The notes: a model not told the origin generated them from the letters alone. DNA of 64,000 nt from Alphaproteobacteria bacterium (GCA_965262615.1 OZ253545.1:352001-416000); one strand, 5' to 3'. Counted from the stretch's first letter, positions 35,031-49,403 are shown. Made by a program: numbers and translations.

Positions 35031-37814
35031 CTAAAAAATAGAAACAGGTTTAGGCATTCTCGTATTGCTGAGCACTGCCACCGAGACATCAATCAGACCC
35101 TTTGCCGGTTCGCCTTTTTCATTGAGAATTCTAAACAACGCCGCTCTCCCTTGCATGCTTACCGTGAAAGGCTCATTGTACCATGTCCAGTTTTCGCCAT
35201 TGTGAATGCGCGTCACTTTAGCGCCGATGACCGCTCGTTTGCTTTCCGGTTCTATTTGTGGGGTTTCAAGAGCAATCAAGCCCGGACGGATGGGCCATTG
35301 TTGCGATGTATCATTGGTGGTGTTCAAACTTTTGTATTGTCTCGTTGTGATGTTCTTATCCAGTGCAAACACAATATCGCTTATGGTCAGCGTGGGAATA
35401 GAGTCATCTGTGACCGCATCGGTGATGGAGACCCGAACTTTGACGGAAAAACGACGCGTCGTGATGGCAGCGAAGGGATCTTTATAAACTGTGCTATTAT
35501 CACCATGGACGCTATAGCTGACCCGATAATTGGCATGGGAAAAAAATGCAAAACTGTAATACATTTCCAAAGCAAGATAGAAAGTCATTTCTTTGCCGAG
35601 ATCGAATGTCTCTGTTTCAAATTCAAAATTGCGCGCCAAACCGGCATAGCCTCCGATGGTGCTCGCCAGTTGACTGATGCCATTGTCTAAATCGCCGATG
35701 GTCTTATCTGAGCCAGTCTCTAATTGACCCTTTTGATTGAGAAAACATTTTTTAAAAGACCCTTTCCAGTTATTTGCTTGGGTGCTGTAGGAAAAGTCTA
35801 AATCACTTGTTTTGGAATAAGGAATCGTATGACGAATCGTTGTGGGTTCGGATAAAGCACTGCCGAAAGAGACGCTTTGGACGCGAAAAAAATAATGACC
35901 AAACGAAGGTGTTGAAATATCCAGAATAGTGTTCTTGGCATAGGGGAAAAGAGTTTCCATTTTGTTTAGATTCTTTCCGTAAGACACGCGAAAGTGTCTG
36001 TAATTCAAAGGATTTCTGACATCCCATGATAAGCGCAAAGTGGAGGAATTGATCTTTGTGACGCGCAGATTGGTGGGTTTGGGAGGAATGGCATCAAAAA
36101 CGGCATCATGGATGAAGACAATGCTCCAGTCGCTCATTTTGCCAAAAACATTCCCAGAGCGCAGGCGGAATTCATATTTAACCAGCTGTCCATAGTGAGA
36201 AATCAGAGCTGGGTCAATGGTGACATAGGTTTCGGTGAGTGCGCCATCAATGGTGAGGGACTGCCATGCTGTCGATCTTTTTTGGCGATAGTTCAATTCA
36301 TAATGGCGCACAGAGTCCGATCCATCGGCTTCCCATTGCACTAAGATGCGGTAGATGTACTTGCCGTTGGGGAATTGCTGGCGATACTGAATTCCTGAAT
36401 AAATGCTGACGCCACTGGGCGGGCGCAGTAAGGGACGGCGCGGCAACTGGCTATTGGGAGCGAGATCGCGACTGGAAGGCTCACCCAGATTCCAATCATA
36501 AATCGCCGCGGCATACTCACGCAGCAGCAGCGTGATGCCGCCGCCCATATCAATGCGCCAAGAAATGACGCGAAACAACTTATCCTTGTATCCCAATTGG
36601 GCGATGGTGACCTTCACCACATCCCACACGGCGATGGTGAGCGCGCTCAATTGGGCGGGAAATTCAATCATGGTGGATTGGCGCGCCTCTTCAAGGAAAA
36701 TTTTTGCCAAGTGGCGCGCTTCGGTTTCATCCGTGGTGGCGGGCAGTTCAATGTTGCGGGCGATACGGTCGCCACCATCTTGCGATTCATACATGTGATT
36801 GAGAACCATCGGGAACTCACACGCCTCCCAGTTGGCATCCTTATTGATAAAAGTGCCCCGCACCGCATTGAACAGTTCCGCTCGTGAGGGGCGAGGGGTC
36901 AATTTGATGGGGGCGCGCAGGTCATTTTCTGTCAGCCTGCCCACAGGCGTTGTGGCGACCCCCACATGCAGACGATACTTGCCATTGGTATAGACCAATG
37001 TGCCCGCACAGGATGTCAGCAAGTCTTCCAGAATGTTGGCACAGGAATCTTGCAAAATCACTTCGGTGTTGAGGCGATAGCGTTTGCGCCGCAATTGCTG
37101 GCGATTGATCACAATTTTTTCATCACAACTGTTGGCTGCCGCCTTCCAATAATTCCAATCAATCTCTGAGTCGCGCGCCATGCCACCATCGCTATGACGC
37201 AAGTAAGCCAATATGCATAACGCCGGATTATCACTCCATTTTATTTTTTGATCGCGAGGGTCATACACTTTCATCCCTTTGACATTCATCGTGATGGTGG
37301 GAATGCCGCGTGTCCAAATATTGGCATCCCATTCCACCCGTGCATACACATAGCAAATGCCATGTCCTCTGTGCGAGGTGCTCCAATCGGGGCATGCGGC
37401 AATCAAGTTTGTTGCGGGTTGATTGTTGTCGCCACTGAAAAATTCGGTGCGCACTTTATTTTTGATGGCATCGTCTGTGGCGTTGTAATCATCAAATTTA
37501 ATATTGCTCACCGCATGGCAGGCATGTCCCGCCAGAGCGATGACAAGGTGCAGGTATTTTTTATTGTGTCCCGAACTGTCGGCAAAGATGAGCACGCCTC
37601 CTGTGTTGATTTCACCGAAAACCATGCGTTGCGGCTCTGCGGATGCTCGCACATTATGCTTGCGTGTTTGTGCCGCTTGGTTGAGATTGACATTGCGCTG
37701 CTTTGAGCGAATCAAACCAAAAGAGACAATATCCAGCGTTTTGGAGACAGCCTTTGTCGTAAAACGCAGAGCCTTCTTGACCACTTTTTTGATGCCGCCG
37801 ATAAACCCGCCCAT
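35031..37814 (-). CDS. Tail tip / host-specificity J-like protein with FN3-like domains
   Basis: VKGMKVYDPR, WSDNPALCILAYL, FNAVRGTF and LREYAAAIYDW motifs; last gene of the tail module. Confidence 0.85.
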   Translation of the reverse strand: MGGFIGGIKKVVKKALRFTTKAVSKTLDIVSFGLIRSKQRNVNLNQAAQTRKHNVRASAEPQRMVFGEINTGGVLIFADSSGHNKKYLHLVIALAGHACHAVSNIKFDDYNATDDAIKNKVRTEFFSGDNNQPATNLIAACPDWSTSHRGHGICYVYARVEWDANIWTRGIPTITMNVKGMKVYDPRDQKIKWSDNPALCILAYLRHSDGGMARDSEIDWNYWKAAANSCDEKIVINRQQLRRKRYRLNTEVILQDSCANILEDLLTSCAGTLVYTNGKYRLHVGVATTPVGRLTENDLRAPIKLTPRPSRAELFNAVRGTFINKDANWEACEFPMVLNHMYESQDGGDRIARNIELPATTDETEARHLAKIFLEEARQSTMIEFPAQLSALTIAVWDVVKVTIAQLGYKDKLFRVISWRIDMGGGITLLLREYAAAIYDWNLGEPSSRDLAPNSQLPRRPLLRPPSGVSIYSGIQYRQQFPNGKYIYRILVQWEADGSDSVRHYELNYRQKRSTAWQSLTIDGALTETYVTIDPALISHYGQLVKYEFRLRSGNVFGKMSDWSIVFIHDAVFDAIPPKPTNLRVTKINSSTLRLSWDVRNPLNYRHFRVSYGKNLNKMETLFPYAKNTILDISTPSFGHYFFRVQSVSFGSALSEPTTIRHTIPYSKTSDLDFSYSTQANNWKGSFKKCFLNQKGQLETGSDKTIGDLDNGISQLASTIGGYAGLARNFEFETETFDLGKEMTFYLALEMYYSFAFFSHANYRVSYSVHGDNSTVYKDPFAAITTRRFSVKVRVSITDAVTDDSIPTLTISDIVFALDKNITTRQYKSLNTTNDTSQQWPIRPGLIALETPQIEPESKRAVIGAKVTRIHNGENWTWYNEPFTVSMQGRAALFRILNEKGEPAKGLIDVSVAVLSNTRMPKPVSIF

Positions 37815-38281
37815 TACACTCTCCACCCCATAAACGCACGGTCAATAGAAAATGACGCAAGCCCCCCCAAAGACAGAGCCTTGACAAAAACACCGCTTAA
37901 ATCCACCACCCCCACAATGGGCTGTCCAGCCGAGCCGCGAACGGAATACGAATGCACCAGAGCAATATCCCCGCGCTGCAAAAAAGAAGGCGATATTTTC
38001 TCAAAGTCTTTTAAGATCAGCGACAGTGCCCGCGGCAAAAAATGACGGTGGTCGTCATCATTTTCCTCGCGCAACAGAGCCTTCATCACATAATGAGATT
38101 TTTTGGCACTGGCGTAGGAAGGAACATTTCTCATGGGATTGTGATTGGTCATGGCTTTGATGGCACGGCTTGCGAAGTGACAGCAATCGCTTGTGCCAAA
38201 AACAAATGACTGTCCTTCCATGTGGGAAAAATAGTCATTGAGCCGTTGCTCCCAGTCGGTGAGGCGGGTGTGGGTGCTCAT
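37814..38281 (-). CDS. Tail-associated NlpC/P60-like (DUF6950-type) protein
   Basis: DWEQRL, FVFGTSDCCHF, QRGDIAL, ends WRV; position before J. Confidence 0.75.
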   Translation of the reverse strand: MSTHTRLTDWEQRLNDYFSHMEGQSFVFGTSDCCHFASRAIKAMTNHNPMRNVPSYASAKKSHYVMKALLREENDDDHRHFLPRALSLILKDFEKISPSFLQRGDIALVHSYSVRGSAGQPIVGVVDLSGVFVKALSLGGLASFSIDRAFMGWRV

Positions 38282-38874
38282 CACGCGCTGCCCCATTCAA
38301 TTTCTTGATGGGCGGTGCGCGTGACAAAAGAAAAAAACCGATCACTGCCATCGGTCGCCACATGGCTCTCGGAAGTGTAGCGTTTGATGCGAGGATATTC
38401 CCAGTCGGCAAGCAAATTTTTCAGCGTCAAAGAAATAGAGGCATCTTCGCCAAGAGATAGCGACATATTATCCATCCGACCCTGAAACAACAGCAGAGGG
38501 TCTTGAACCAATTGATGGTCGTCATCAAAAAAAACGATAAAAATCTTGCCATTGCGTCCTTGATAATGCTCTTGCAACGCCAAGGAAATCAGATGAGAAG
38601 GAATGCCACTCAATTGCAATTGCACACTGTAGGGACGAATTTCCGCTCCTTCTTCAAAAGAGGAGACCTCAAGCAAATCTCCCACCGCCGTGAAAATTTC
38701 CTTTTGATTGTCGTCATTGCTGTCAAAGGCGATATCGGAGGAGGCATCAGTGAGACGAATATGTCCCGAGAGAAAGTGCAAATCCACAAGAATGATGGGA
38801 CCAATCACCACGGAGGATTGGCTGGCTTGTTGCATCTGTTGCGAGATATGGCGAGAGGATTGTTGCGTCTGCAT
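38281..38874 (-). CDS. Tail hub / baseplate-type protein
   Basis: AVGDLLEVS..EE, LSGIP, LFQGRMD and RYT..H...DRFF.FV motifs; position in module. Confidence 0.7.
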   Translation of the reverse strand: MQTQQSSRHISQQMQQASQSSVVIGPIILVDLHFLSGHIRLTDASSDIAFDSNDDNQKEIFTAVGDLLEVSSFEEGAEIRPYSVQLQLSGIPSHLISLALQEHYQGRNGKIFIVFFDDDHQLVQDPLLLFQGRMDNMSLSLGEDASISLTLKNLLADWEYPRIKRYTSESHVATDGSDRFFSFVTRTAHQEIEWGSA

Positions 38875-39536
38875 CAGGGATAGCTCTCTATGAGTTCAAA
38901 TTGCATGGAGGCTTGATTCATTTTTTCAAAAGAGAATCGGCTTTGTTTGTCGTTGGCGAGACGCATGACGCAAAAACAATCATGGGTGATGATGCGACTG
39001 CCATCACGGGGCGGCAGGCGCAGCACAGGCGTGATGGCAAGATGAGCGACACCGTCAGACATCACAACGGCATCGCTGGTGAGGCTATGGAGTGCGTTGT
39101 GTCCATTGGCGAGCAAAATCGTGATGGTGTCTCCTTTTTTCAAGACGGTGCTGTCGCCATTTTTTTGCTGCCACCCTCGTGTGACAAGCTGCGAGCCCTT
39201 TTGATTCGCTCCCTTGATGACGGGCGCGCCACTGGCGTGTCCTTTGGGAGTTTTGCCATGAGGCGGAAAAAAGAGAAACTTCCTCTGAGGGCCATTGAGG
39301 GACAAAATAAATGCCGTCACCTGACGCACCATCTCTTCGCCATGAAGAGCATAGCTCACATGAGCGCGCCAGTGAGAATTGGGATTGGCGAGCAGTTGGG
39401 TGTAGCCCGTGAGGGGAGAGGTGTAGCTTTGGGTGTGTGTCACCAGTTCCCATTGCATGCGGGTGGGGGCTGGATTGGTCATCCAGCGGCGCAGCGAAGG
39501 AATGGTGGAGATGCTGATGCCTGAGTTTTGCGTCAT
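38874..39536 (-). CDS. Distal tail protein-like
   Basis: SPLTG..Q, W.A, F..SLNG and I.P.LR motifs; directly after tape measure. Confidence 0.65.
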   Translation of the reverse strand: MTQNSGISISTIPSLRRWMTNPAPTRMQWELVTHTQSYTSPLTGYTQLLANPNSHWRAHVSYALHGEEMVRQVTAFILSLNGPQRKFLFFPPHGKTPKGHASGAPVIKGANQKGSQLVTRGWQQKNGDSTVLKKGDTITILLANGHNALHSLTSDAVVMSDGVAHLAITPVLRLPPRDGSRIITHDCFCVMRLANDKQSRFSFEKMNQASMQFELIESYP

Positions 39537-39592: not shown

Positions 39593-40534
39593 TTAGCGTC
39601 TTCCCATGGCGCGCGCATAGGAGCCACCCTCAAAAGAGCGGTGTGCGACTTCATCGGCGCCGGCGCGAGCGGCTTTTTGCACAATGCGCGGCTCTTCCTC
39701 CCGCAAGACGGCGCGAATGCGCTCTTCAACGCCTGAATCGGCGCCGCGCGCATCAATGTGATTGTTAATCACCACCGATGCTGACCCCCCGCCGCCACCG
39801 GCGGCAACGCCCAGCTCCCCCGAGGACAAACGGCGCAGCGGCATGATGGCTTCAGGTCCCGCCTCCCCCATCATGCCAAGCGGAAAGAGGGTGGATGAGC
39901 CCACAACGCCGCCGCGAGCAAAAGGAATCACCTCGCCGTGTTCAAACACGCCTCCTTTGGCAAAAAAGAAATTGGAGATTGTGTCCACAATGCTACCGAA
40001 ACCGCCGCCACCTAAAAAATTACCGATAAGACTCCCGCCGCCGCCTGATCCAACGCCAAACAAACTGCCCAATCCACCGCTCAGAGAACCAAAGAGCGCA
40101 CTAATGCCGCCGTCAATCAGTTTATCAAAAAGATTGCCGCCCAAGCCCTTCAAAATGCCGCCGATGTCCGGCGCATTCCATTCTCCCTTCAAAATGCCAT
40201 CCTTCAGGGTGTCTTTGAGCTCCGTGCCGATACTTTCGGTCGCCTCTTCAACTTCGTCTGAAAAATCTTTCGGCTTCAGCGCAATATCTGAGACAAAGTC
40301 ATTAAATCCTTTTTCAATGGCATTGGCACTGGCATCAAGGCTTTTGATTAGGCTCTCTCCGAATGAATCGCTGCCTTTGGCGGTTTTCTTGCTGCTTTCA
40401 GCAAGCTTGTCACTGCATTCTTCAAGTTTTTTGCTGTTGGCGGCGATGCGGTCAAAGGCGCGTTGCATTTCCTCCTGCTGTTCGGGGGAATAGTTAAAGA
40501 CGGCGGTGGTGAGTCTTCCTATGGGGGCTTCCAT
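39593..40534 (-). CDS. Short tail tape measure protein (313 aa)
   Basis: Helical N-terminus, Gly-rich segment, FAKGG..PFARGGVV..MGEAGPEAIMPLRR motif. Confidence 0.85.
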   Translation of the reverse strand: MEAPIGRLTTAVFNYSPEQQEEMQRAFDRIAANSKKLEECSDKLAESSKKTAKGSDSFGESLIKSLDASANAIEKGFNDFVSDIALKPKDFSDEVEEATESIGTELKDTLKDGILKGEWNAPDIGGILKGLGGNLFDKLIDGGISALFGSLSGGLGSLFGVGSGGGGSLIGNFLGGGGFGSIVDTISNFFFAKGGVFEHGEVIPFARGGVVGSSTLFPLGMMGEAGPEAIMPLRRLSSGELGVAAGGGGGSASVVINNHIDARGADSGVEERIRAVLREEEPRIVQKAARAGADEVAHRSFEGGSYARAMGRR

Positions 40535-40564
40535 GGTGTATCCTCTGTGATGATGGGGAGGGAT

Positions 40565-41380
40565 ATGATGATGTGGATGCGTGTGATTGTTTATGGAACG
40601 GCGTTATCTTTCCTGTTGGCGAGTGATGGCTCGGCGCGTCAAAACAGCGATCTGGAAATAGCGCAGCTGTGCGGCATTGCTCACGAAATCATACCATTGT
40701 TGTCTTTGAGACATTGCAAGAAAATCGTAAAAACCGAGAGGGGAAGGAATTGTGACAGTGATTATTTAGGTTGCTATGAAGTATCGTTGCGTCATGCTGA
40801 AAGTGATTCTTTTGTCACTTCGAATAACAATGAGAAGAATGTTTATTATGAGTTACGGATAGAGGAAGAGAATTGTTACGGCGGTTACGGTACTTATTTA
40901 GGCTGTTATGAAGTATCATTGCGTCATGCTGAAAGTGATTCTTTTGTCACTTCGAATAACAATGAGAAGAATGTTTATGATGAGTTACGGATAGCGGATG
41001 CTCATTGTCGTGGCACTTATTTAGGCTGTTATGAAGTGTCATTGCGTCATGCTGAGAGTGATTCTTTTGTCACTTTGAATCGCAATGATAAGAATATTTA
41101 TTATGAGTTACGGATAGCGGATGCGGGTTGTCGTGGTGCTTATTTGGGTTGTTATGAAGTATCATTGCGTCATGCTGAGAGTGATTCTTTTGTCACTTTG
41201 AATCGCAATGATAAGAATATTTATTATGAGTTACGGATAGCGGATGCGCGTTGTCGCGGTGCTTATTTGGGCTGTTATGAAGTATCATTGCGTCATGCTG
41301 AGAGTGATTCTTTTGTCACTTTGAATCGCAATGATAAGAATATTTATTATGAATTTCGGGTCTCCCCATCGGGCGGGTAA
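40565..41380 (+). CDS. Secreted 41-aa Cys-repeat protein, paralog 1 (5 repeats)
   Basis: Signal peptide MMMWMRVIVYGTALSFLLASDGSA; unit CYEVSLRHAESDSFVTLNRNDKNIYYELRIADAGCRGAYLG. Confidence 0.85.
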   Translation: MMMWMRVIVYGTALSFLLASDGSARQNSDLEIAQLCGIAHEIIPLLSLRHCKKIVKTERGRNCDSDYLGCYEVSLRHAESDSFVTSNNNEKNVYYELRIEEENCYGGYGTYLGCYEVSLRHAESDSFVTSNNNEKNVYDELRIADAHCRGTYLGCYEVSLRHAESDSFVTLNRNDKNIYYELRIADAGCRGAYLGCYEVSLRHAESDSFVTLNRNDKNIYYELRIADARCRGAYLGCYEVSLRHAESDSFVTLNRNDKNIYYEFRVSPSGG

Positions 41381-41382
41381 CT

Positions 41383-42189
41383 ATGATGATGTGGATGCGT
41401 GGAATTGTTTATGGAACGGCATTATCTTTCCTGTTGGTGAGTGATGGCTCGGCGCGCCAAAAAAGCGATCAAGCAACGGTGCAGCTGTGCCAGATTATTC
41501 ACGACATCATGCCGTTGTTGTCTGTGAGACATTGCAAGAAAATCTTACAAACCGAGAGAGGGAGGCTTTGTGACAGTGATTATTTAGGCTGCTATGATGT
41601 ATCGCTGCTTTATTCTGAAGACAGTGTTTTTTATGGATTGGGTCGCGATGCTCGGGATATTTATTACCAACTTCGGATAGAAGATGGTCGTTGTTTCGGT
41701 GATTATTTAGGCTGTTATGAAGTGTCGTTGCTTTATTCTGAGGACAGTGTTTTTTATGGATTGGGTCGCGATGCTCGGGATATTTACTATCAACTTCGGA
41801 TAGAAGACGGTCGCTGTTTCGGTGATTATTTAGGCTGTTATGAAGTGTCGTTGCTTTATTCTGAGGACAGTGTTTTTTATGGATTGGGTCGCGATGCTCG
41901 GGATATTTACTATCAACTTCGGATAGAAGATGGTCGCTGTTTCGGTGATTATTTAGGCTGTTATGAAGTGTCATTGCTTTATTCTGAGGACAGTGTTTTT
42001 TATGGATTGGGTCGCGATGCTCGGGATATTTACTATCAACTTCGGATAGAGGACGGTCGCTGTTTCGGTGCTTATTTAGGCTGTTATGAAGTGTCGTTGC
42101 TTTATTCTGAGGACAGTGTTTTTTATGGATTGGGTCGCGATGCTCGGGATATTTACTATCAATTTCGGGTCTCCCCATCAGGCGGGTAA
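41383..42189 (+). CDS. Secreted 41-aa Cys-repeat protein, paralog 2 (5 repeats)
   Basis: Unit CYEVSLLYSEDSVFYGLGRDARDIYYQLRIEDGRCFGDYLG, 123-nt period. Confidence 0.85.
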   Translation: MMMWMRGIVYGTALSFLLVSDGSARQKSDQATVQLCQIIHDIMPLLSVRHCKKILQTERGRLCDSDYLGCYDVSLLYSEDSVFYGLGRDARDIYYQLRIEDGRCFGDYLGCYEVSLLYSEDSVFYGLGRDARDIYYQLRIEDGRCFGDYLGCYEVSLLYSEDSVFYGLGRDARDIYYQLRIEDGRCFGDYLGCYEVSLLYSEDSVFYGLGRDARDIYYQLRIEDGRCFGAYLGCYEVSLLYSEDSVFYGLGRDARDIYYQFRVSPSGG

Positions 42190-42191
42190 CT

Positions 42192-42998
42192 ATGATGATG
42201 TGGATGCGTGGAATTGTTTATGGAACGGCGTTATCTTTCCTGTTGGTGAGTGATGGCTTGGCGCGTCAAAACAGCGATCTGGAAATAGCGCAGCTGTGCG
42301 GCATTGCTCACGAAATCATGCCGTTGTTGTCTTTGAGACATTGCAAGAAAATCGTAAAAACCGAGAGGGGAAGGAATTGTGACAGTGATTATTTAGGTTG
42401 CTATGAAGTGTCATTGCTTCATGCTGATAGTCTTGTTTTTTCCACTTCTAAAAGGAGCGAGAAGAATCTTTATTATGAGTTACGGATAGCGGATGCGGGT
42501 TGTCGTGGTGCTTATTTAGGTTGTTATGAGGTTTCGTTGCTTCATGCTGATAATCTTGTTTTTTCCACTTCTAAAAGGAGCGAGAAGAATCTTTATTATG
42601 AGTTACGGATAGCGGATGCGGGTTGTCGTGGTGCTTATTTAGGTTGTTATGAGGTTTCGTTGCTTCATGCTGATAATCTTGTTTTTTCCACTTCTAAAAG
42701 GAGCGAGAAGAATCTTTATTATGAGTTACGGATAGCGGGTGTGGGTTGTCGTGGTGATTATTTGGGTTGTTATGAGGTTTCGTTGCTTCATGCTGATAAT
42801 CTTGTTTTTTCCACCTCTAAAAGGAGCGAGAAGAATCTTTATTATGAGTTACGGATAGCGGATACGCGTTGTGATGATGATTATTTAGGCTGTTATGAGG
42901 TTTCGTTGCTTCATGCTGATAATCTTGTTTTTTCCACTTCTAAAAGGAACGAGAAGAATCTTTATTATGAGTTGCGTGTCTCCTCATCAGGCTGGTAA
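42192..42998 (+). CDS. Secreted 41-aa Cys-repeat protein, paralog 3 (5 repeats)
   Basis: Unit CYEVSLLHADNLVFSTSKRSEKNLYYELRIADAGCRGAYLG. Confidence 0.85.
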   Translation: MMMWMRGIVYGTALSFLLVSDGLARQNSDLEIAQLCGIAHEIMPLLSLRHCKKIVKTERGRNCDSDYLGCYEVSLLHADSLVFSTSKRSEKNLYYELRIADAGCRGAYLGCYEVSLLHADNLVFSTSKRSEKNLYYELRIADAGCRGAYLGCYEVSLLHADNLVFSTSKRSEKNLYYELRIAGVGCRGDYLGCYEVSLLHADNLVFSTSKRSEKNLYYELRIADTRCDDDYLGCYEVSLLHADNLVFSTSKRNEKNLYYELRVSSSGW

Positions 42999-43000
42999 CT

Positions 43001-43804
43001 ATGATGATGTGGCTGCGTGGAATTGTTTATGGAACGGCGTTATCTTTCCTGTTGGTGAGTGATGGCTTGGCGCGCCAAAACAGCGATCAAGCAACGGTGC
43101 AGCTGTGCCAGATTATTCACGGCATCATGCCATTGTTGTCTGTGGACAATTGCAAGAAAATCTTAAAAACCAAGAAAGGAAGTTGTCGTGGTGATTATTT
43201 AGGCTGTTATGAAGTATCATTGCTTCATGCTGATAGTGGTGTCTTTTACACTTTGAATCGCAACGAGCGGAATCTTTATTATGAGTTGCGGATAGCGGAT
43301 GCGGGTTGTCGTGGTGATTATTTAGGCTGTTATGAAGTGTCGTTGCTTCATGCTGATAGTGGTGTCTTTTACACTTTGAATCGCAATGAGCGGAATCTTT
43401 ATTATGAGTTACGGATAGCGGATGCGGGTTGTCGTGGTGATTATTTAGGCTGTTATGAAGTGTCGTTGCTTCATGCTGACAGTGGTGTCTTTTACACTTT
43501 GAATCGCAACGAGCGGAATATTTATTATGAGTTACGGATAGCGGATGCGGGTTGTCGTGGTGATTATTTAGGCTGTTATGAAGTATCATTGCTTCATGCT
43601 GACAGTGGTGTCTTTTACACTTTGAATCGCAACGAACGGAATATTTATTATGAGTTACGGATAGCGGATGCGGGTTGTCGTGGTGCTTATTTAGGCTGTT
43701 ATGAAGTATCATTGCTTCATGCTGATAGTGGTGTCTTTTACACTTTGAATCGCAATGAGCAGAATATTTATTATGAGTTACGGGTCTCCCCATCAGGCTG
43801 GTAA
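43001..43804 (+). CDS. Secreted 41-aa Cys-repeat protein, paralog 4 (5 repeats)
   Basis: Unit CYEVSLLHADSGVFYTLNRNERNIYYELRIADAGCRGDYLG. Confidence 0.85.
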   Translation: MMMWLRGIVYGTALSFLLVSDGLARQNSDQATVQLCQIIHGIMPLLSVDNCKKILKTKKGSCRGDYLGCYEVSLLHADSGVFYTLNRNERNLYYELRIADAGCRGDYLGCYEVSLLHADSGVFYTLNRNERNLYYELRIADAGCRGDYLGCYEVSLLHADSGVFYTLNRNERNIYYELRIADAGCRGDYLGCYEVSLLHADSGVFYTLNRNERNIYYELRIADAGCRGAYLGCYEVSLLHADSGVFYTLNRNEQNIYYELRVSPSGW

Positions 43805-43806
43805 CT

Positions 43807-44733
43807 ATGATGATGTGGATGCGTGTGATTGTTTATGGAACGGCGTTATCTTTCCTGCTGGTGAGTGATGTCTCGGCGCGCTCTCAAGAGACAGTGCTGT
43901 GCCACATTGTTCACAGCGTCATGCCATTGTTGTCTGTGGACAATTGCAAGAAAACCTTACAAACCAAAAGAGGAAGACGTTGTTCCAGTGACCGTTATTT
44001 AGGCTTTTATGATGTATCGTTGCTTTATTCTGCGGATGATATTTTTCGTGGATTGGGTGACGATCATCGGGATATTTACTATCAACTTCGGATAGAAGAT
44101 GATGGCTGTGCCAGTGACCGTTATTTAGGTTTTTATGATGTATCGTTGCTTTATTCTGCGGATGATATTTTTCGTGGATTGGGTGACGATCATCGAGATA
44201 TTTATTACCAACTTCGGATAAAAGATGGTGGTTGTTCCAGTGACCGTTATTTAAGCTGTTATGATGTATCGTTGCTTTATTCTGCGGATGATATTTTTCG
44301 TGGATTGGGTGACGATGCTCGGGATATTTACTATCAACTTCGGATAGAAGACGGTCGCTGTTCCAGTGCTTATTTAGGCTGTTATGATGTATCGTTGCTT
44401 TATTCTGCGGATGATATTTTTCGTGGATTGGGTGACGATGCTCGGGATATTTACTATCAACTTCGGATAGAAGATGGTCGCTGTTCCAGTGCTTATTTAG
44501 GCTGTTATGATGTGTCGTTGCTTTATTCTGCGGATGATATTTTTCGTGGATTGGGTGACGATGCTCGGGATATTTACTATCAACTTCGGATAGAAGATGG
44601 TCGCTGTTCCAGTGCTTATTTAGGCTGTTATGATGTGTCGTTGCTTTATTCTGCGGATGATATTTTTCGTGGATTGGGTGACGATGCTCGGGATATTTAC
44701 TATCAATTCCGTGTCTCCTCATCAGGCTGGTAA
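43807..44733 (+). CDS. Secreted 41-aa Cys-repeat protein, paralog 5 (6 repeats)
   Basis: Unit CYDVSLLYSADDIFRGLGDDARDIYYQLRIEDGRCSSAYLG; the first two units have F in place of C. Confidence 0.85.
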   Translation: MMMWMRVIVYGTALSFLLVSDVSARSQETVLCHIVHSVMPLLSVDNCKKTLQTKRGRRCSSDRYLGFYDVSLLYSADDIFRGLGDDHRDIYYQLRIEDDGCASDRYLGFYDVSLLYSADDIFRGLGDDHRDIYYQLRIKDGGCSSDRYLSCYDVSLLYSADDIFRGLGDDARDIYYQLRIEDGRCSSAYLGCYDVSLLYSADDIFRGLGDDARDIYYQLRIEDGRCSSAYLGCYDVSLLYSADDIFRGLGDDARDIYYQLRIEDGRCSSAYLGCYDVSLLYSADDIFRGLGDDARDIYYQFRVSSSGW

Positions 44734-44735
44734 CT

Positions 44736-45539
44736 ATGATGATGTGGATGCGTGGAATTGTTTATGGAACGGCGTTATCTTTCCTGTTGGTGAGTGATGG
44801 CTCGGCGCGATTCGATGGTCGTCAAGAGACGGTGCTGTGCAAGATTGTTCACGAAATCATGCCGTTGCTGCCTGTGACCAATTGTAAGAAAATCTTACAA
44901 TCTAAAAGGGGAAGTGAATGTTCCAGTGCTTATTTAGGCTGTTATGAAGTGTCGTTGCTTTTTGCTGATAGCCGTTCCTTTTATACTTGGGATAGCAAGG
45001 AAGGGAATATTTATTATGAGTTACGGATAGCCGATTCGGATTGTGTTGGTGCTTATTTAGGTTGTTATGAGGTGTCACTGCTTTTTGCTGATAGCCGTTC
45101 CTTTTATACTTGGGATAGCAAGGAAGGGAATATTTATTATGAGTTACGGATAGCCGATTCGGATTGTGTTGGTGCTTATTTAGGCTGTTATGAGGTGTCG
45201 TTGCTTTTTGCTGATAGCCGTTCCTTTTATACTTGGGATAGCAAGAAAGGGAATATTTATTATGAGTTACGGGTAGCTGATTCGGATTGTGTTGGTGCTT
45301 ATTTGGGTTGTTATGAGGTGTCACTGCTTTTTGCTGATAGCCGTTCCTTTTATACTTGGGATAGCAAGGAAGGGAATATTTATTATGAGTTACGGATAGC
45401 CGATTCGGACTGTAGTGGTGCTTATTTAGGTTGCTATGAGGTTTCATTGCTTCCTGCGAAGAGTCGTTCTTTTTATACTTGGGATAGCAATGAGGGGAAT
45501 ATTTATTATGAGTTTCGGGTCAACCCATCGGGCGGGTAA
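44736..45539 (+). CDS. Secreted 41-aa Cys-repeat protein, paralog 6 (5 repeats)
   Basis: Unit CYEVSLLFADSRSFYTWDSKEGNIYYELRIADSDCVGAYLG. Confidence 0.85.
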   Translation: MMMWMRGIVYGTALSFLLVSDGSARFDGRQETVLCKIVHEIMPLLPVTNCKKILQSKRGSECSSAYLGCYEVSLLFADSRSFYTWDSKEGNIYYELRIADSDCVGAYLGCYEVSLLFADSRSFYTWDSKEGNIYYELRIADSDCVGAYLGCYEVSLLFADSRSFYTWDSKKGNIYYELRVADSDCVGAYLGCYEVSLLFADSRSFYTWDSKEGNIYYELRIADSDCSGAYLGCYEVSLLPAKSRSFYTWDSNEGNIYYEFRVNPSGG

Positions 45540-45544
45540 TTATT

Positions 45545-45865
45545 TTATTTTTGTTGTTTGAGACACTCGCGCTCCAGAATTTGAATTTTGTGAAAATCCC
45601 GTGGCGAGATATGCAGATGTGCGAGGCGTGCGGCAATGGACAGGGCGTTGTAATCCAGCCCAATCCACTGTCCTGAGGGAGCGATGCGCCACTGGGTGAT
45701 GACCAGCAAAAAAAGCCGCAACGCGCGCTCATTGGATGGCAACAGTGTGAATTCGTGCGGTGCGTGGGCATCAATCACCTCTTGCGGTGCGCCCAGAGCC
45801 TTGAGGTCATTGTGGCGGGCAGTGCCGTCCGTCAGGAGGTGACGGACGGCACCGATGAGTTTTTT
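45545..45865 (-). CDS. Tail assembly chaperone -1 frameshift extension (DUF1799-like, lambda gpGT analogue)
   Basis: TQWRIAPSG..IGLDY and IQILERECL motifs; frame is open back to the slippery site. Confidence 0.8.
   Translation of the reverse strand, partial: KKLIGAVRHLLTDGTARHNDLKALGAPQEVIDAHAPHEFTLLPSNERALRLFLLVITQWRIAPSGQWIGLDYNALSIAARLAHLHISPRDFHKIQILERECLKQQK
45822..45865 (-). promoter_or_regulatory. Programmed -1 ribosomal frameshift signal
   Basis: A_AAA_AAC heptamer, 6-nt spacer, perfect 13-bp stem GTGCCGTCCGTCA-CCTCC-TGACGGACGGCAC. Confidence 0.85.
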
Positions 45866-46191
45866 TCAGACGCTGCTCCCGACAAGGATTCAATATAAGC
45901 TTTGAGCAATGCCGCGCGAATGTAGGGGATGTCAATCATGCGCTTTTTCCAATGGTCATCAAAGGGCAGTGGCTGGTCGTGTTCATCCACTATGTCACGC
46001 CAGCCCACAAGAACCTTGTGAAGCAAGCGCACATCGCCATTGTCGCCATCATCCACCAGCTGACGCAAAGACTGCTGTCCCATCTCCACAAAGCAGGCGG
46101 TGAATTGTTGCTGCTGGATGCCGTTTTCTGAAGGCACGCTCACCACAATGGGGCACGCAAAGCGGCGGTCAATGATGATTTTAAAGCTCAT
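45832..46191 (-). CDS. Tail assembly chaperone (gpG analogue)
   Basis: VLVGWRDIVDE...LPF motif; EKN near the C-terminus; follows the tail tube gene. Confidence 0.8.
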   Translation of the reverse strand: MSFKIIIDRRFACPIVVSVPSENGIQQQQFTACFVEMGQQSLRQLVDDGDNGDVRLLHKVLVGWRDIVDEHDQPLPFDDHWKKRMIDIPYIRAALLKAYIESLSGAASEKNSSVPSVTS

Positions 46192-46200
46192 GATGCGTGC

Positions 46201-47124
46201 CTATTGGGTGGTGATGGTGAGTTCATCATTGCCCTCATGGGGCAGCAGATGCATGTCAAATTTGAGGGTGCGAATGCCGTCTCGGTCACCGTAGCTGGGC
46301 TGTGTCAATTGAACTTTGGGCGCGCTCCATCCCACAACAGAGCCGCTTTTTGTGCCCAAAGTGAGCGAAAAAATGCCTGTGGCGGCGTTTTCCATCTTGT
46401 CAAAAAAGTTGAACGACGAGACGGACGGGTCTTTAATCTCAATGCTTCCTGTGGCGTGACGCTCCGTGATCTCCACCGATTCAGAATTCATGTAAGAGAT
46501 GAATGGCGCAGAGACTCCCATATCCAATGAGAGCGAGGCGGTGGTGACATTGCGTCCAAACAGCACCATGCTGGCGACCTCATTTTTTGACAGTGTGAGA
46601 GGCGTTTTGAAGGCACTGTAATTGGCATTGGGCAAGGATGCAGCCTCTGGAGTCTGGTAGAGTCCCCTGAAGGTGAAAGAAAGAGACGGGTAGTCGTTGG
46701 CGTTCAAAGAGGCATTGAAGGTGCCGCGCGCACCCGTGACCTTATGCAATGTGCCATCCTGATACACATAAAAAGTGAGGGAGGAAAAATGATCGGAGAT
46801 GGGCTTGTAGAAAACGGCGTTGCTGGTGCTGTTTTGCTTAAATCCGCATCCCTTGAGCAACAAAGCCCATGCGGGGGCGACATTTTTTGTTCCCGAACCG
46901 GCGGCGGTGACGGAGAACGATAATTGCACATGGCGATTGGACAGGGCGGCAAAATTGCCACCAAGCCACTGTTTGACGGCGGGCAGCTCTTTGCGTTCAG
47001 CATTGAGAGGCGATATGTCAAGATCGCTGACCTCAATGGCATTGGTGCTGGCGGACGGTGTGGCATCTCGAGCGTAAGAGCTCTCAAGGGCGGCGAGGAT
47101 GACTCGTTTTTTGGTCAGAGGCAT
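46201..47124 (-). CDS. Phage tail tube (major tail) protein
   Basis: ILAALESSY..D, LLKGCG, HKVTGARGTF, Y.DRDGI and GNDEL motifs; no sheath gene present. Confidence 0.8.
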   Translation of the reverse strand: MPLTKKRVILAALESSYARDATPSASTNAIEVSDLDISPLNAERKELPAVKQWLGGNFAALSNRHVQLSFSVTAAGSGTKNVAPAWALLLKGCGFKQNSTSNAVFYKPISDHFSSLTFYVYQDGTLHKVTGARGTFNASLNANDYPSLSFTFRGLYQTPEAASLPNANYSAFKTPLTLSKNEVASMVLFGRNVTTASLSLDMGVSAPFISYMNSESVEITERHATGSIEIKDPSVSSFNFFDKMENAATGIFSLTLGTKSGSVVGWSAPKVQLTQPSYGDRDGIRTLKFDMHLLPHEGNDELTITTQ

Positions 47125-47133
47125 GGGATTCTC

Positions 47134-47571
47134 CTAAGGTTGGATGGTTTTTTGAGTGACGAATTGATCCTCCCACCACAGAACACCTTTGCCGAATTGA
47201 ACGAGGCGTCCTTTGATAAAATCGGGGGCACTGTGGGTGTCGTCTTGCTGTTTTTTGATGAGAGGAATCAGAGCCGTGCGCGCTTTGAGCACATGAGTCA
47301 GTTGTCCCAAAGAGCCGGTGTGGCGCGGTTGTTGATGAGACGCTTGATAGCACTGCAGAATGGAAAAGCGCACAGCGATTGTTTGTGAGCCATCGGAAAA
47401 ACGGCTGCTTTTGGCATTTTCCTCAAGGGGCACCACATATGCTGCGGGCAGCTGATGGGATGGCGGGGCATCTTTTTTGTTGGCAATCATCATCACCGAG
47501 CCACTGCTGGCAAAGAGGTCGTCAGCGGTCAGTTGGGTGATGATGGATTGAAAGAAACGGCGGCTGTCCAT
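47134..47571 (-). CDS. Putative tail terminator
   Basis: LPAAYVVPL.E and G.L....GVLWW.DQF motifs; between adaptor and tube. Confidence 0.65.
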   Translation of the reverse strand: MDSRRFFQSIITQLTADDLFASSGSVMMIANKKDAPPSHQLPAAYVVPLEENAKSSRFSDGSQTIAVRFSILQCYQASHQQPRHTGSLGQLTHVLKARTALIPLIKKQQDDTHSAPDFIKGRLVQFGKGVLWWEDQFVTQKTIQP

Positions 47572-47575
47572 GATG

Positions 47576-47980
47576 CTAAAAGGAAGACAGCCGTGAGCCG
47601 CTCAATTGACGAGGATGAGCCTGCCATTTCACTTCATTGGTGTCTGTGGGTGGTTGGTTGAGATCGTAAGTGCCGTGGGCGATGTCTTCCAGCATTTGTT
47701 TGGCATCTTGATAGCGTTTGCGCACTTCGTCACTGGGGTCGGTGGTGTGAAGGCGAAAGCGCGCAATATCGCATGCCAAAATGGTGAGCAGAGGGAATGT
47801 CTCGGAGAGCGGCAGCTGATAGCGTTTGAGCAAGTAAATATTGATCTCGGCATCGGCATCCTCTAAGGCGCGCGTGACGATGCTTGAATTGATGGTGGTC
47901 TGATTGACACGGTCGGTGAGGGCAATGAGTTCATCTTGCCCAAATTTTTTCTTGAGGTCGTCCAAAGAGGCGTATGACAT
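47576..47980 (-). CDS. Mu gp36-like (DUF1320) head-tail adaptor
   Basis: MSYASLDDL, AL.DA.AEI..YL..RY.LPL, CDIARF.L and RYQDA...L..IA.G motifs. Confidence 0.85.
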   Translation of the reverse strand: MSYASLDDLKKKFGQDELIALTDRVNQTTINSSIVTRALEDADAEINIYLLKRYQLPLSETFPLLTILACDIARFRLHTTDPSDEVRKRYQDAKQMLEDIAHGTYDLNQPPTDTNEVKWQAHPRQLSGSRLSSF

Positions 47981-48038
47981 GGAAAAATCCTTGTTGGTGT
48001 GTGCCTCAGCCGTTGTGTGCGGCTGAGGCACGAGGCGG

Positions 48039-48938
48039 TTATGCGAGGCGCGGCTCTATATGAACATCCACCACATTGTGATTGACATTGGATGAGCCAT
48101 TGCTGAGTCGTTCGGCTTTGACGACCGCATAGGCGGCGGCACGCAAGGCGGGCGGAACGATGAGCAAGTTGGGCATGATATTCAAAGGACGCTCGTTGTC
48201 ACCTTTGAGGCTCATCATGGCACTCATGGCTTGATTGAAATTGTCGCTGGTGAGAGCAGCTTTTGAGCCATATGCCAGTTGCCACAATCCGTATCCTGCG
48301 GCGGCGCGTGCATCCACGCCGTAGATGTACTCTTTGCGGTAGAAGACATTATCATCGCCGTCATCATCTTTGCGCATGAGCGTGGGGGCTTTGCGAGTTT
48401 GATAGATGAGGGGTTTGATGGCGCGATGGCGATCCACGAGGAACCAAGGCGTTTTGTCACCGGTTTGCATGTTGGAGGCGGTTTTCTTTTTGCCATTGGC
48501 ATCGGTGACGGGATGACTGGTGTCAAAGAAAGGACGCCCGTCATAGCCTGTTTTGGTGAAGCCGTCATTGAGCAGGGGCCAGACGAGATCATCGGGCAGT
48601 TGAGCGGCGGCATCTCCCATGTTGGCGAACAGCAGTTTGTATGCGCCCAGTTGTTCGTCTTCAATGTCGTTGCGAGCAACGGCGAGGGTGAGTTCCCAGT
48701 CTTCGTTTTCAATGGAAAAGCCGTGTTGCGAGACTCCTCGCACCACGCGATCGCCCACCCAAGGACGCAAAGCGGGCAGATCGCCCAGCCAAGGATAGGT
48801 GTTACGCGTGGTATTAGAGGGGGCATCCATAGCCACATGGGAGTAGCTCGCCCGATGACCCTCAAAGGCTTCGGCGAAAGATTCATTGAAGCCCACATAA
48901 GCGGACTCAAGAATGTCGGGGGTGATGGTGATTGCCAT
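48039..48938 (-). CDS. Mu gpT-like major head subunit
   Basis: YPWLG.LP.LR.WVGDR, YDG.PFFDT.HP, KPLIYQ.R and YGVDAR.AAGYGLWQLAYGS motifs. Confidence 0.92.
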   Translation of the reverse strand: MAITITPDILESAYVGFNESFAEAFEGHRASYSHVAMDAPSNTTRNTYPWLGDLPALRPWVGDRVVRGVSQHGFSIENEDWELTLAVARNDIEDEQLGAYKLLFANMGDAAAQLPDDLVWPLLNDGFTKTGYDGRPFFDTSHPVTDANGKKKTASNMQTGDKTPWFLVDRHRAIKPLIYQTRKAPTLMRKDDDGDDNVFYRKEYIYGVDARAAAGYGLWQLAYGSKAALTSDNFNQAMSAMMSLKGDNERPLNIMPNLLIVPPALRAAAYAVVKAERLSNGSSNVNHNVVDVHIEPRLA

Positions 48939-48965
48939 AGTGATTAGTCTCCTTACGGTATGTGG

Positions 48966-49385
48966 TTAGTTGATGATGACCCAGACACTTTTGTTATCAT
49001 TGTCCAGAGCAAGCACTGTGCCTGCTGATTTGCGGGCATTGCTGTTGCTGTTGGTGCTGACGGTTTGGTCATCCATGGCATAGACGGTTGTGCCGATGTG
49101 TGACGGGGTGACCTTGTGGCTGTTGCTTGTGTCATTGTCAAACAGAAAGACACCTCGCTCCAAAGTGACAGTGGCATTGCCTGCGGTGGTTTGAGCATCA
49201 ATACCTGTTTGGGCGATGCCCATGATGGGGCTGTTGGCAGAAGCGTGTCCTGCCGGCACGGCATAGCCATGGCGATCAAGGGCGACCATAGCGCCGGCAT
49301 AGAGGGTGACCGATGCCGCAACAGAATAGGCAACGCTTGTGCCATCACGGCGAGCGGTCGGTTTGTCTTGGGTGAGCGCAGTCAT
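48966..49385 (-). CDS. Putative capsid cement/decoration protein
   Basis: MTALTQD..T.RRDG, LYAGAMV, YAMDDQTV, ends VWV; between protease and capsid. Confidence 0.7.
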   Translation of the reverse strand: MTALTQDKPTARRDGTSVAYSVAASVTLYAGAMVALDRHGYAVPAGHASANSPIMGIAQTGIDAQTTAGNATVTLERGVFLFDNDTSNSHKVTPSHIGTTVYAMDDQTVSTNSNSNARKSAGTVLALDNDNKSVWVIIN

Positions 49386-49403
49386 AAAGCTCTCCTTATG
49401 AGG

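What the first reader, a model, noticed from the sequence alone, without database searches (positions are those of the whole stretch)
40565..45539. Six-gene array of secreted 41-aa Cys-repeat proteins of an unrecognised family, embedded in a phage-derived tail operon
Seen: six head-to-tail paralogs, each separated by only 2 nt (TAA-CT-ATG). Each has a near-identical Sec-type signal peptide, a Cx14C cap, 5 (one has 6) repeats of about 41 aa, and a conserved end (RVxxSGG/W). Each repeat has a fixed framework (Cx3YLGCY[E/D]VSL ... [I/L]YY[E/Q]LRI, giving a Cx6C pair) and two variable segments that are nearly constant within a gene but differ between genes. Known: 5-6 tandem units of 40-50 aa is the pattern of symmetric beta-propeller lectins such as tachylectin-2. 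Inferred: this is a repertoire of multivalent binders on one disulfide-stabilised scaffold with six specificities. Possible roles are adhesins/lectins for a host, receptor decoys or immunity proteins for the adjacent particle, or multi-core peptide precursors. I recognise no named family.
Basis: partly seen in the sequence, partly recalled or inferred. Interest (0 to 1): 0.92.

Follow-up and report, generated by a model that had tools for sequence, protein, structure and literature searches.

The report
Orphan secreted Cys-repeat gene array
Six back-to-back genes for exported proteins built from five or six nearly identical 41-residue units are real, belong to no known family, and sit inside a broken prophage of a small-genome marine symbiont, where they most likely act as a set of multivalent binding proteins.

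Summary
There are six + strand genes with 2-nt spacers, near-identical signal peptides, a Cx14C cap and 31 repeats of 41 aa.

The + frame is coding. Framework codons show pN/pS 0.14 and variable codons 0.96, at equal pS. Repeats are homogenised within genes (94% identity) and differ between genes (72%).

No family was found. Pfam, PHROGs, a PDB profile search, the ESM Atlas and two large protein searches gave only four short fragments and one doubtful TPR hit.

The fold is unresolved. Two AlphaFold runs gave pLDDT 36 and 43, so the propeller-lectin idea could not be tested.

The context needs sharpening. The array lies antisense where the N-terminal part of the tape-measure gene should be, in a Mu-like prophage whose terminase and portal are 1.1 Mb away.

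Its GC3 (0.34-0.40) matches the genome's Sel1 and ankyrin repeat genes, not the core genome.

Best reading: a horizontally acquired, recombining repertoire of exported multivalent binders for host interaction. The function is untested.

The parts
40565..41380 (+). Gene 1, 271 aa. Signal peptide, Cx14C cap and 5 repeats. Unit 2 carries a 3-aa insert. GGAGG-like Shine-Dalgarno 5 nt upstream.
41383..42189 (+). Gene 2, 268 aa, 5 near-perfect repeats of the 'Q-type' (YYQLRIEDGR).
42192..42998 (+). Gene 3, 268 aa, 5 repeats. Its cap is the same type as that of gene 1.
43001..43804 (+). Gene 4, 267 aa, 5 repeats. The Cys loop reads CRGDYLGC in 4 of the 5 units.
43807..44733 (+). Gene 5, 308 aa, 6 repeats. 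Units 1-2 lack the second Cys, yet the mature protein still has 12 Cys.
44736..45539 (+). Gene 6, 267 aa, 5 repeats. Its stop codon lies 5 nt from the stop codon of the convergent DUF1799 gene.
40535..40564 (.). 30-bp divergent intergenic region between gene 1 and the tape-measure remnant. It holds a Shine-Dalgarno-like motif for each gene. No consensus promoter was found.
39593..40534 (-). Tape-measure protein ORF of 313 aa that is C-terminal only. It aligns to positions 655-930 of 943 and similar C-terminal ranges of tape-measure profiles.
45545..45778 (-). Tail assembly chaperone (DUF1799, phrog_680). In intact relatives the tape-measure gene follows this gene directly.
45832..46191 (-). 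Tail assembly chaperone, gpG-like (phrog_569).
46201..47124 (-). Tail tube protein (Phage_tube_2).
47134..50471 (-). Four genes: tail terminator, Mu Gp36-like, Mu gpT major head protein, and Mu gpI protease/scaffold.
35031..39536 (-). Distal tail genes: Dit (phrog_1302), tail protein (phrog_2048), DUF6950, and a 931-aa J-like central fibre. tRNA-Arg lies 12 nt beyond the end of the J-like gene.

Best explanation
The six genes encode a lineage-restricted, previously undescribed family of exported, disulfide-bonded, beta-rich repeat proteins.

Inferred pathway for each product:
- It is taken across the inner membrane by Sec.
- It is cleaved after the SDGSA-type site.
- It is oxidised to six disulfides.
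- It folds into a helical N-terminal cap followed by five (in one gene six) copies of one 41-residue unit.

Each unit has two conserved amphipathic strands, YLGCYEVSLL and NIYYELRI. Between and around them are a 15-residue variable loop and a short Cys-closed variable loop. All units in one protein carry the same loops, so each protein displays one surface five times. The six genes give six such surfaces.

The cassette is foreign to the core genome and shares the low-GC3 signature of the genome's Sel1 and ankyrin repeat genes. It sits antisense in a dismembered Mu-like prophage, where it has replaced the 5' part of the tape-measure gene. It is reshuffled by recombination between paralogs and strains.

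The most likely role is extracellular or surface binding of host (sponge or other marine host) or environmental ligands, by analogy with secreted repeat proteins of symbionts and their phages.

Shown here: the genes, the reading frame, the selection pattern, homogenisation within genes, the foreign composition, the position in the prophage, and presence in other samples.

Inferred only: export, disulfides, fold, multivalent binding, and the target.
For: Genes and repeats.

Coding frame and selection. The 20 framework codons give pS 0.39 and pN 0.054. The 21 variable codons give pS 0.44 and pN 0.42.

Concerted evolution. Repeat cores are 93.8% identical within genes (65 pairs) and 72.1% identical between genes (400 pairs). 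Signal-peptide DNA is 92-97% identical. All six mature proteins have 12 Cys.

Mosaicism. Cap types pair genes 1+3, 2+4 and 5+6, whereas repeat types pair genes 2+5 against genes 1, 3, 4 and 6. One contig in run X5 joins the gene-6 cap to gene-2 repeats.

Foreign composition. GC3 is 0.34-0.40 in the array, 0.50-0.62 in the 12 flanking phage genes and 0.54-0.60 in 4 host genes. The genome mean is 0.564 with sd 0.067 (809 ORFs), and 5 of 5 Sel1/ankyrin genes examined have GC3 0.33-0.42.

Export machinery is present: DsbA, BamA and two secretins.

Prophage context.

Other samples. The right junction is bridged by X1 record 8, and the left junction by X5 record 18, which is about 88% identical to the window. 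Fragments P0001, P0002, P0004 and P0005 come from other assemblies.

Fold hints. Both low-confidence AlphaFold models put strands in the repeats, and the second puts helices in the cap.

Precedent. Passages of 10.1101/608950 describe secreted ankyrin proteins of sponge-symbiont phages that reduce phagocytosis.
Against: - There is no expression data.
- No structure is usable (pLDDT 35.9 and 42.8; Foldseek best TM 0.26).
- The signal peptide was judged by eye only.
- No consensus promoter lies upstream of gene 1 and no terminator lies after gene 6.
- The framework/variable split was chosen by conservation, so only the equal pS is independent evidence.
- A pN/pS near 1 in the variable part is compatible with relaxed constraint as well as diversifying selection.
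- The composition link to the Sel1/ankyrin genes is circumstantial.
- P0004 and P0005 have only one repeat. If they are real rather than assembly collapse, a fixed five-unit architecture is not required.
- The only non-self hit is a TPR protein (E 2.6e-6; hhalign probability 78.6%). This would argue for a helical fold, not a beta fold.
Confidence: 0.45

Rival explanations
1. Outer-membrane beta-barrel variant set. Each repeat would be one transmembrane beta-hairpin, giving 10- or 12-stranded barrels with five or six identical hypervariable surface loops. The set would be carried as prophage cargo, like lambda Lom, or would be comparable to the Neisseria Opa repertoire (both recalled from memory).
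For: - A Sec-type N-terminus, and BamA present in the genome.
- Two conserved strands of 8-10 residues per unit with strict alternation of hydrophobic residues: Y5, G7, Y9, V11, L13 and I31, Y33, L35, I37 (column table).
- The second AlphaFold model has two strands of 8-9 residues per repeat (low confidence).
- A long variable loop alternates with a short turn.
- Three of the six proteins end in W.
- The last unit has L35F in 4 of 6 genes.
- Outer-membrane barrels are regarded as hairpin repeat proteins (PMC6340704, seen as search listing and abstract start only).
Against: - 12 Cys per protein is atypical for outer-membrane proteins (general knowledge).
- Three of the six proteins end in G, and five residues follow the last strand.
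- The short turn is also variable.
- An N-terminal disulfide-bonded helical cap suggests a soluble capped repeat.
- No Pfam outer-membrane family matches.
- Alternating strands are equally expected in soluble beta proteins.
Confidence: 0.12
2. Divergent TPR/Sel1-like alpha-solenoid with one disulfide per repeat, comparable to Helicobacter cysteine-rich Sel1 proteins (recalled from memory). The binding function would be the same but the fold helical.
For: - The only non-self hit among 1.84 billion representatives is a TPR/CHAT-type protein, P0003, at E 2.6e-6.
- hhalign gives probability 78.6% with 30% identity over 175 columns, with the same register in each repeat.
- The genome is rich in Sel1 repeat genes.
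Against: - The score sums one weak match of about 41 aa repeated 4.5 times.
- No TPR or Sel1 Pfam model appears even at E up to 10.
- Only one of the very many TPR proteins in the library matched.
- The small residue at the TPR helix-packing position is Tyr here.
- Both AlphaFold runs place strands, not helices, in the repeats.
- The variable residues form contiguous blocks, as loops would.
Confidence: 0.1
3. Closed five- or six-bladed beta-propeller lectin, as proposed by the first reader.
For: - The unit number (5-6) and unit size (41 aa) are in the range of propeller blades.
- Identical loops in all units would give a symmetric multivalent face.
- Five of the six genes keep exactly five units, with position-specific first and last units shared across genes.
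Against: - No profile or structure match to any propeller family.
- Only two or three plausible strands per unit, rather than four.
- The unit number varies between 5 and 6.
- The N-terminal helical cap suggests an open capped array.
Confidence: 0.12
4. Multi-core precursor that is cut into 41-residue disulfide-looped peptides, such as bacteriocin-like or signalling peptides.
For: Near-identical units within a gene and a contiguous 15-residue variable block flanked by conserved segments.
Against: - No conserved cleavage motif between units.
- No protease, transporter or modification genes within the phage cluster.
- Half of each unit is a conserved hydrophobic framework, which is typical of a folded core.
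- The leader is Sec-type rather than a RiPP leader.
Confidence: 0.04
5. Decaying or functionless island: a recently amplified selfish or neutral repeat cassette lodged in dead prophage DNA.
For: - The family is orphan and restricted to one lineage.
- It lies in a disrupted prophage.
- The variable part shows pN/pS near 1.
- No promoter or terminator was found.
Against: - All six ORFs are intact, with conserved starts, stops and Cys count.
- The framework shows pN/pS 0.14.
- The array is retained in a 1.54-Mb reduced genome and in diverged strains from other studies.
Confidence: 0.07

Closest known systems
Secreted ankyrin-repeat proteins (ANKp) of sponge-symbiont 'Ankyphages' (10.1101/608950; passages read)
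   Same: A phage-borne, signal-peptide-bearing tandem-repeat protein in a marine host-associated bacterium. It is not a virion part, and it is proposed or shown to act on the eukaryotic host.
   Different: There is no sequence relation. The repeats here are 41-aa Cys-containing units that are probably beta. There are six tandem paralogs. The prophage is a remnant, and no function has been tested.
Expanded Sel1-like and ankyrin repeat ('eukaryotic-like') proteins of the same genome and of sponge symbionts
   Same: Exported tandem-repeat binders, low GC3, multi-gene families and signs of recombination.
   Different: No Pfam Sel1, TPR or Ank match. The repeat length and predicted secondary structure differ. 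Repeats within a gene are almost identical here.
Phage morons in late operons, such as lambda lom/bor (recalled from memory; review PMC3594210 seen as search listing and abstract start only)
   Same: Cargo of foreign composition placed among tail genes. It encodes an exported protein that benefits the lysogen rather than the virion.
   Different: The cargo is inserted on the opposite strand. It replaces part of an essential tail gene instead of lying between genes. It is a six-gene array, and no own promoter or terminator was detected.
Tachylectin-2-type five-bladed propeller lectins (recalled from memory)
   Same: Five tandem units of 40-50 aa and an expected multivalent symmetric binding surface.
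   Different: No sequence or profile similarity. The fold could not be confirmed. A Cys pair per unit and an N-terminal cap are not features recalled for that family.
Helicobacter cysteine-rich (Hcp) Sel1 proteins (recalled from memory)
   Same: Secreted, with one closely spaced Cys pair per repeat of about 36-41 aa.
   Different: Hcp proteins are alpha/alpha repeats that match Sel1 models. This family does not match them and looks beta.

Membership tests
Five-bladed beta-propeller lectins (tachylectin-2-like) | Sequence or profile similarity to the family | tested here: not met
   No Pfam hit that passes on a single stretch. The best PDB profile hit has E 0.94.
Five-bladed beta-propeller lectins (tachylectin-2-like) | Closed propeller fold with four-stranded blades | tested here: inconclusive
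   AlphaFold pLDDT 35.9 and 42.8, with 2-3 strands per unit. Foldseek gave 0 hits at E <= 0.001.
Five-bladed beta-propeller lectins (tachylectin-2-like) | Carbohydrate binding | not testable with these tools
   Needs glycan arrays.
TPR / Sel1-like alpha-solenoids | Match to TPR or Sel1 profile models | tested here: not met
   None of the 6 proteins matches at E up to 10.
TPR / Sel1-like alpha-solenoids | Homology to a bona fide TPR protein | tested here: inconclusive
   P0003 matched at E 2.6e-6. hhalign probability is 78.6%. The score is inflated by the repeats.
TPR / Sel1-like alpha-solenoids | Helix-turn-helix repeat | tested here: inconclusive
   Low-confidence models show strands in the repeats.
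Outer-membrane beta-barrels (Lom/Opa/OmpX-like) | Signal peptide and an even number of amphipathic strands of 8-10 residues | tested here: inconclusive
   The pattern is present but is not specific to membrane barrels.
Outer-membrane beta-barrels (Lom/Opa/OmpX-like) | C-terminal aromatic beta-signal at the chain end | tested here: inconclusive
   Three of six proteins end in W and three in G. Five residues follow the last strand.
Outer-membrane beta-barrels (Lom/Opa/OmpX-like) | Match to an outer-membrane protein profile | tested here: not met
Phage moron | Foreign composition and placement between phage late genes | tested here: met
   GC3 is 0.34-0.40 against 0.50-0.62 in the flanking genes. 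The array lies between the chaperone gene and the tape-measure remnant.
Phage moron | Own promoter and terminator | tested here: not met
   The consensus scan found none upstream of gene 1 or after gene 6. The scan is crude.
RiPP multi-core precursor | Neighbouring maturation or export genes and conserved cleavage sites | tested here: not met
   Only phage structural genes lie within 35031-50471. No conserved inter-unit cleavage motif.
Diversity-generating retroelement target | Reverse transcriptase and template repeat | tested here: not met
   No RVT_1 match in the 98%-complete genome. Third-position changes in the variable codons do not fit adenine-only mutagenesis.

The most novel reading that the evidence does not exclude
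The proteins are beta-barrels assembled from five or six almost identical beta-hairpins, very possibly in the outer membrane. Each barrel would be crowned by five identical hypervariable loops, and six loop sets are encoded in tandem and shuffled by recombination. This would be a present-day example of barrel formation by hairpin amplification. It would also be a new kind of prophage-borne surface-variation repertoire in a symbiont.
Probability: 0.12. Interest if true: 0.85.

Novelty: new variant of a known kind. Interest (0 to 1): 0.56.

Why it matters
Marine symbionts are thought to persist in their hosts through exported repeat proteins, but only ankyrin, Sel1/TPR, LRR and similar imported families are known.

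This would add a family with no detectable relatives and an unusually clean design: a conserved disulfide-braced framework, one loop set copied five times per protein, and six loop sets per genome. That design makes it a natural system for studying three things:
- how multivalent binders diversify by concerted evolution;
- how prophage remnants serve as landing pads for host-interaction genes;
- if the barrel reading holds, how beta-barrels arise from hairpins.

The scaffold could also be of interest for protein engineering. All of this depends on showing expression, fold and a ligand.

Tried and rejected
Searches that found nothing usable
- Near-length and longer-protein searches found no homologs.
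- Pattern scans matched 42 metagenome, 15 genome and 19 viral stretches, but none was confirmed by tblastn.
- Among 40 other genomes of the same order or class, none matched the six-protein profile.
- The ESM Atlas gave no usable hit, and the PDB profile search gave a best E of 0.94.
- Pfam hits such as DUF7729 (E 4.8e-8), Cytotoxic (E 2e-7) and 2CSK_N have no single stretch that passes on its own. They are sums of one short match repeated, so I rejected them. The weak PHROG hits are the same kind.

Structure
- Two AlphaFold jobs failed to give a usable model.
- Foldseek on the better model returned only noise.

Expression
- No RNA holder was listed among the sequencing runs.

Mechanisms and mobility
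- A diversity-generating retroelement is rejected because the genome has no reverse transcriptase.
- A transposon-type insertion is not supported: no terminal inverted repeats flank the array.
- The minus-strand ORFs of 181-267 aa inside the array are by-products of the repeats. The + frame fills each gene and shows synonymous change at conserved residues.

Items left open
- One-repeat proteins P0004 and P0005 could be assembly collapse or real short forms. The tool that would fetch their contigs is closed, so this was not resolved.
- Four of the five loose-end strings from the laid contigs are absent from this genome. By eye, the one at the left junction aligns partly with the tape-measure 5' end, so I read it as a diverged allele rather than a second locus.

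Not run
- The complex-prediction job was not used, because no specific binding claim is made.

Full report
1. THE OBSERVATION

ORF listing and translation confirm six head-to-tail + strand genes at 40565-41380, 41383-42189, 42192-42998, 43001-43804, 43807-44733 and 44736-45539. They encode 271, 268, 268, 267, 308 and 267 aa. Genes 2-6 each start two bases after the preceding TAA, with CT as the spacer.

The alignment shows an almost invariant N-terminus with these features, read by eye because no signal-peptide predictor was available:
- one Arg;
- a hydrophobic stretch of about 13 residues;
- SDGSA/SDGLA/SDVSA followed by R.

The first 75 nt are 92-97% identical in all 15 gene pairs. A cap with a Cx14C pair follows, then 5, 5, 5, 5, 6 and 5 repeats, 31 in all. 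Twenty-six units are exactly 41 aa. Tandem Repeats Finder reports period 123 with 91-96% matches in each gene. Every mature protein has exactly 12 Cys. This includes the six-repeat protein, in which two units have lost the second Cys.

2. IS IT CODING, AND HOW DOES IT EVOLVE?

I compared one representative unit per gene at the codon level.

| Codon class | Number | pS | pN | pN/pS |
|---|---|---|---|---|
| Framework | 20 | 0.39 | 0.054 | 0.14 |
| Variable | 21 | 0.44 | 0.42 | 0.96 |

The classes were defined by conservation, so the low framework pN is partly circular. The equal pS is not circular. It shows that conserved residues are kept through synonymous change (for example Leu TTG/TTA/CTT, Gly GGT/GGC, Val GTA/GTG/GTT). 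The + frame is therefore translated.

The long minus-strand ORFs inside the array are repeat by-products.

Repeat cores are 93.8% identical within a gene (65 pairs) and 72.1% identical between genes (400 pairs). First and last units nevertheless carry position-specific features shared between genes:
- CDSD in the first unit of genes 1-3;
- Ala at position 4 in the last unit;
- Phe35 in the last unit of 4 of 6 genes.

So the five-unit plan predates the gene duplications, and the variable loops were later homogenised within each gene.

Cap types group genes 1+3, 2+4 and 5+6. Repeat types group genes 2+5 against genes 1, 3, 4 and 6. The paralogs are therefore mosaics.

3. FAMILY SEARCHES

- Pfam, PHROGs and a PDB profile search gave nothing that passes on a single stretch. 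The small whole-protein E-values for DUF7729, Cytotoxic and 2CSK_N come from one short match summed over the repeats.
- The 5.8-billion-protein word search found nothing at similar or greater length.
- An exhaustive HMMER search of 1.84 billion representatives with the six-protein profile gave three hits: two fragments (P0001 and P0002) and a 629-aa TPR protein, P0003, at E 2.6e-6.
- A search among shorter proteins added P0004 and P0005. Each has a signal peptide, a cap, one repeat and the conserved end. They may be collapsed assemblies or real short forms.
- Scans of metagenome, species-representative genome and viral contigs confirmed no relative.
- None of 40 other genomes of the same order or class matched. 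The genome has no family-level relative in that set.
- The ESM Atlas gave no lead.

The TPR hit reaches hhalign probability 78.6%, but it is one weak match of about 41 residues counted 4.5 times. No TPR or Sel1 model appears even at E up to 10.

4. FOLD

Two AlphaFold runs were made. One used the full-length protein with six rows, the other the mature protein with ten rows. They gave pLDDT 35.9 and 42.8. Foldseek on the better model found nothing. The models cannot be used.

As a weak hint, both place strands in the repeats. The second shows two helices in the cap and two strands of 8-9 residues per unit.

The sequence agrees with a hairpin unit (table):
- YLGCYEVSLL and NIYYELRI alternate hydrophobic and polar residues;
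- positions 15-29, around an invariant Phe21, form a contiguous variable block;
- positions 38-41 and 2-4, the Cys-closed loop, also vary.

Whether the hairpins form an open capped array, a closed barrel or a propeller is open. The propeller-lectin model is neither supported nor excluded.

5. CONTEXT

On the minus strand the window carries these genes in order:
- a Mu-like protease/scaffold, Mu gpT capsid, Gp36, tail terminator and tube;
- two tail chaperones, the second DUF1799, ending at 45545;
- the array, on the opposite strand;
- a 313-aa tape-measure ORF (39593-40534);
- Dit, a tail protein, DUF6950 and a 931-aa J-like fibre.

The tape-measure ORF aligns only to the last 280 or so positions of 943- to 1151-position tape-measure profiles. 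Two intact comparisons show what is missing:
- In Rhizobium phage RHph_X3_2, which has the same downstream gene order, the tape-measure gene is 2367 nt and our match lies in its last 135 or so codons.
- In a class-level relative, G059, a 2115-aa tape-measure gene follows the chaperones directly, and the shared GEAGPEAIMPL motif lies about 90 residues from its end, as it does here.

The 5-kb array therefore occupies, in antisense, the place of the N-terminal part of the tape-measure gene. It leaves 30 bp on one side and 5 bp on the other. No inverted repeats flank it.

The prophage is dismembered. Its only portal gene, with a large terminase and a weak Mor-like gene, lies at about 1.515-1.518 Mb, and the only capsid gene lies at 0.400 Mb. 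All these ORFs are intact. The remnant could be decaying, or it could be kept for some use.

6. ORIGIN AND HABITAT

| Gene set | GC3 |
|---|---|
| Array genes | 0.34-0.40 |
| 12 flanking phage genes | 0.50-0.62 |
| 4 host genes | 0.54-0.60 |
| 809 long ORFs, genome-wide | mean 0.564, sd 0.067; 5.6% below 0.40 |
| 5 of 5 Sel1/ankyrin repeat genes examined | 0.33-0.42 |

The genome is 1.54 Mb in one contig. It holds many tandem arrays of 36-aa Sel1 and 33/34-aa ankyrin repeats, some with signal peptides. It encodes DsbA, BamA and two secretins.

Twelve public runs from five studies hold part of the stretch, among them marine and sponge metagenomes. Laying four runs gave these results:
- Contigs cover the flanks and parts of the array in all four.
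- The right junction is bridged by X1 record 8 (45380-45990).
- The left junction is bridged by X5 record 18 (40077-40590), which has 60 differences in 514 letters.
- A contig in X5 joins the gene-6 cap to gene-2 repeats.
- Loose ends show further cap variants.
- Indels in the tape-measure remnant of other strains are frame-preserving: +1 and -1 seven bases apart, a 3-base loss, and an 83-to-113-letter replacement.

X1 may be the source sample, so it is not independent support. Earlier notes of this scan call the organism a deep-branching, uncultivated alphaproteobacterial sponge symbiont with recombining Sel1 genes and A+T-rich swap-in islets. I confirmed only the Sel1/ankyrin content and the composition pattern.

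7. MECHANISM

Most likely (about 0.45), the cassette is horizontally acquired cargo that encodes exported, disulfide-braced, beta-rich repeat proteins. Each displays one loop set five times, and the six genes give six loop sets. Recombination at the conserved 5' and 3' ends reshuffles caps and repeat sets. The proteins would bind host or environmental ligands outside the cell.

The nearest functional precedent is the secreted ankyrin protein of sponge-symbiont phages, which lowers phagocytosis (10.1101/608950, passages read).

Rivals:
- an outer-membrane hairpin barrel with variable loops (0.12);
- a propeller lectin (0.12);
- a TPR/Sel1-like helical solenoid (0.10);
- a functionless island (0.07);
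- a multi-core peptide precursor (0.04).

A retroelement-driven mechanism is excluded because the genome has no reverse transcriptase.

8. NOVELTY AND VERDICT

The theme is known: exported repeat binders in symbionts, and cargo in prophages. The family is not known. Its clean concerted-evolution design and its position inside a tape-measure gene are unusual.

I rate it a new variant of a known kind, with interest 0.56. Expression, fold and ligand are all untested, which limits the score. The hairpin-barrel reading, if true, would raise it considerably.

Noticed in passing
G000:C1:1514271-1518077 (L014 6271-10077) versus window 35031-50471: The Mu-like prophage is split. A weak Mor-like gene, the large terminase and the only Mu portal gene lie about 1.1 Mb from the only capsid gene and the tail genes. 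All these ORFs are intact and both loci are flanked by core genes (rodA, PBP2 and mreBC at one locus; sucA at the other). This could be a rearranged remnant or a domesticated particle system.
   Followed up: partly
window 43184-43675 (gene 4) and 42747-42869 (gene 3, unit 4): The Cys-closed loop reads CRGDYLGC in 4 of 5 units of gene 4 and in 1 unit of gene 3. This is an RGD tripeptide in a disulfide-closed loop, a pattern recalled from integrin ligands. It may be coincidence.
   Followed up: no
window 39593-40534: The tape-measure remnant has its own GAGGA Shine-Dalgarno 6 nt before its ATG. In contigs of other strains its indels preserve the reading frame. Its 5' end is much more diverged between strains (about 12%) than the chaperone side (about 2.5%).
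   Followed up: partly
window 40565-40579 and the starts of genes 2-6: Each gene opens with ATGATGATGTGGATG, so four in-frame ATGs are candidate starts. The string TATGAT, which overlaps the first ATG, resembles a -10 box placed 7 nt before the fourth ATG. This recalls the leaderless-type promoters noted earlier in this genome (e1-783826). No -35 box was seen.
   Followed up: no
G000:C1:229361-230476 (minus strand): A 372-aa ORF holds four 68-aa repeats that are 99% identical at the DNA level (period 204). Its family is unknown. Other high-scoring tandem arrays lie at 8902-9756 (period 171) and 1509506-1510577 (period 268, with no covering ORF).
   Followed up: no
window 34566-34640 and 34943-35019: tRNA-Pro and tRNA-Arg genes lie directly beyond the end of the J-like fibre gene. 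This may mark the old edge of the prophage.
   Followed up: no
window 32919-33611: A 230-aa ORF with no Pfam match lies just outside the prophage remnant.
   Followed up: no
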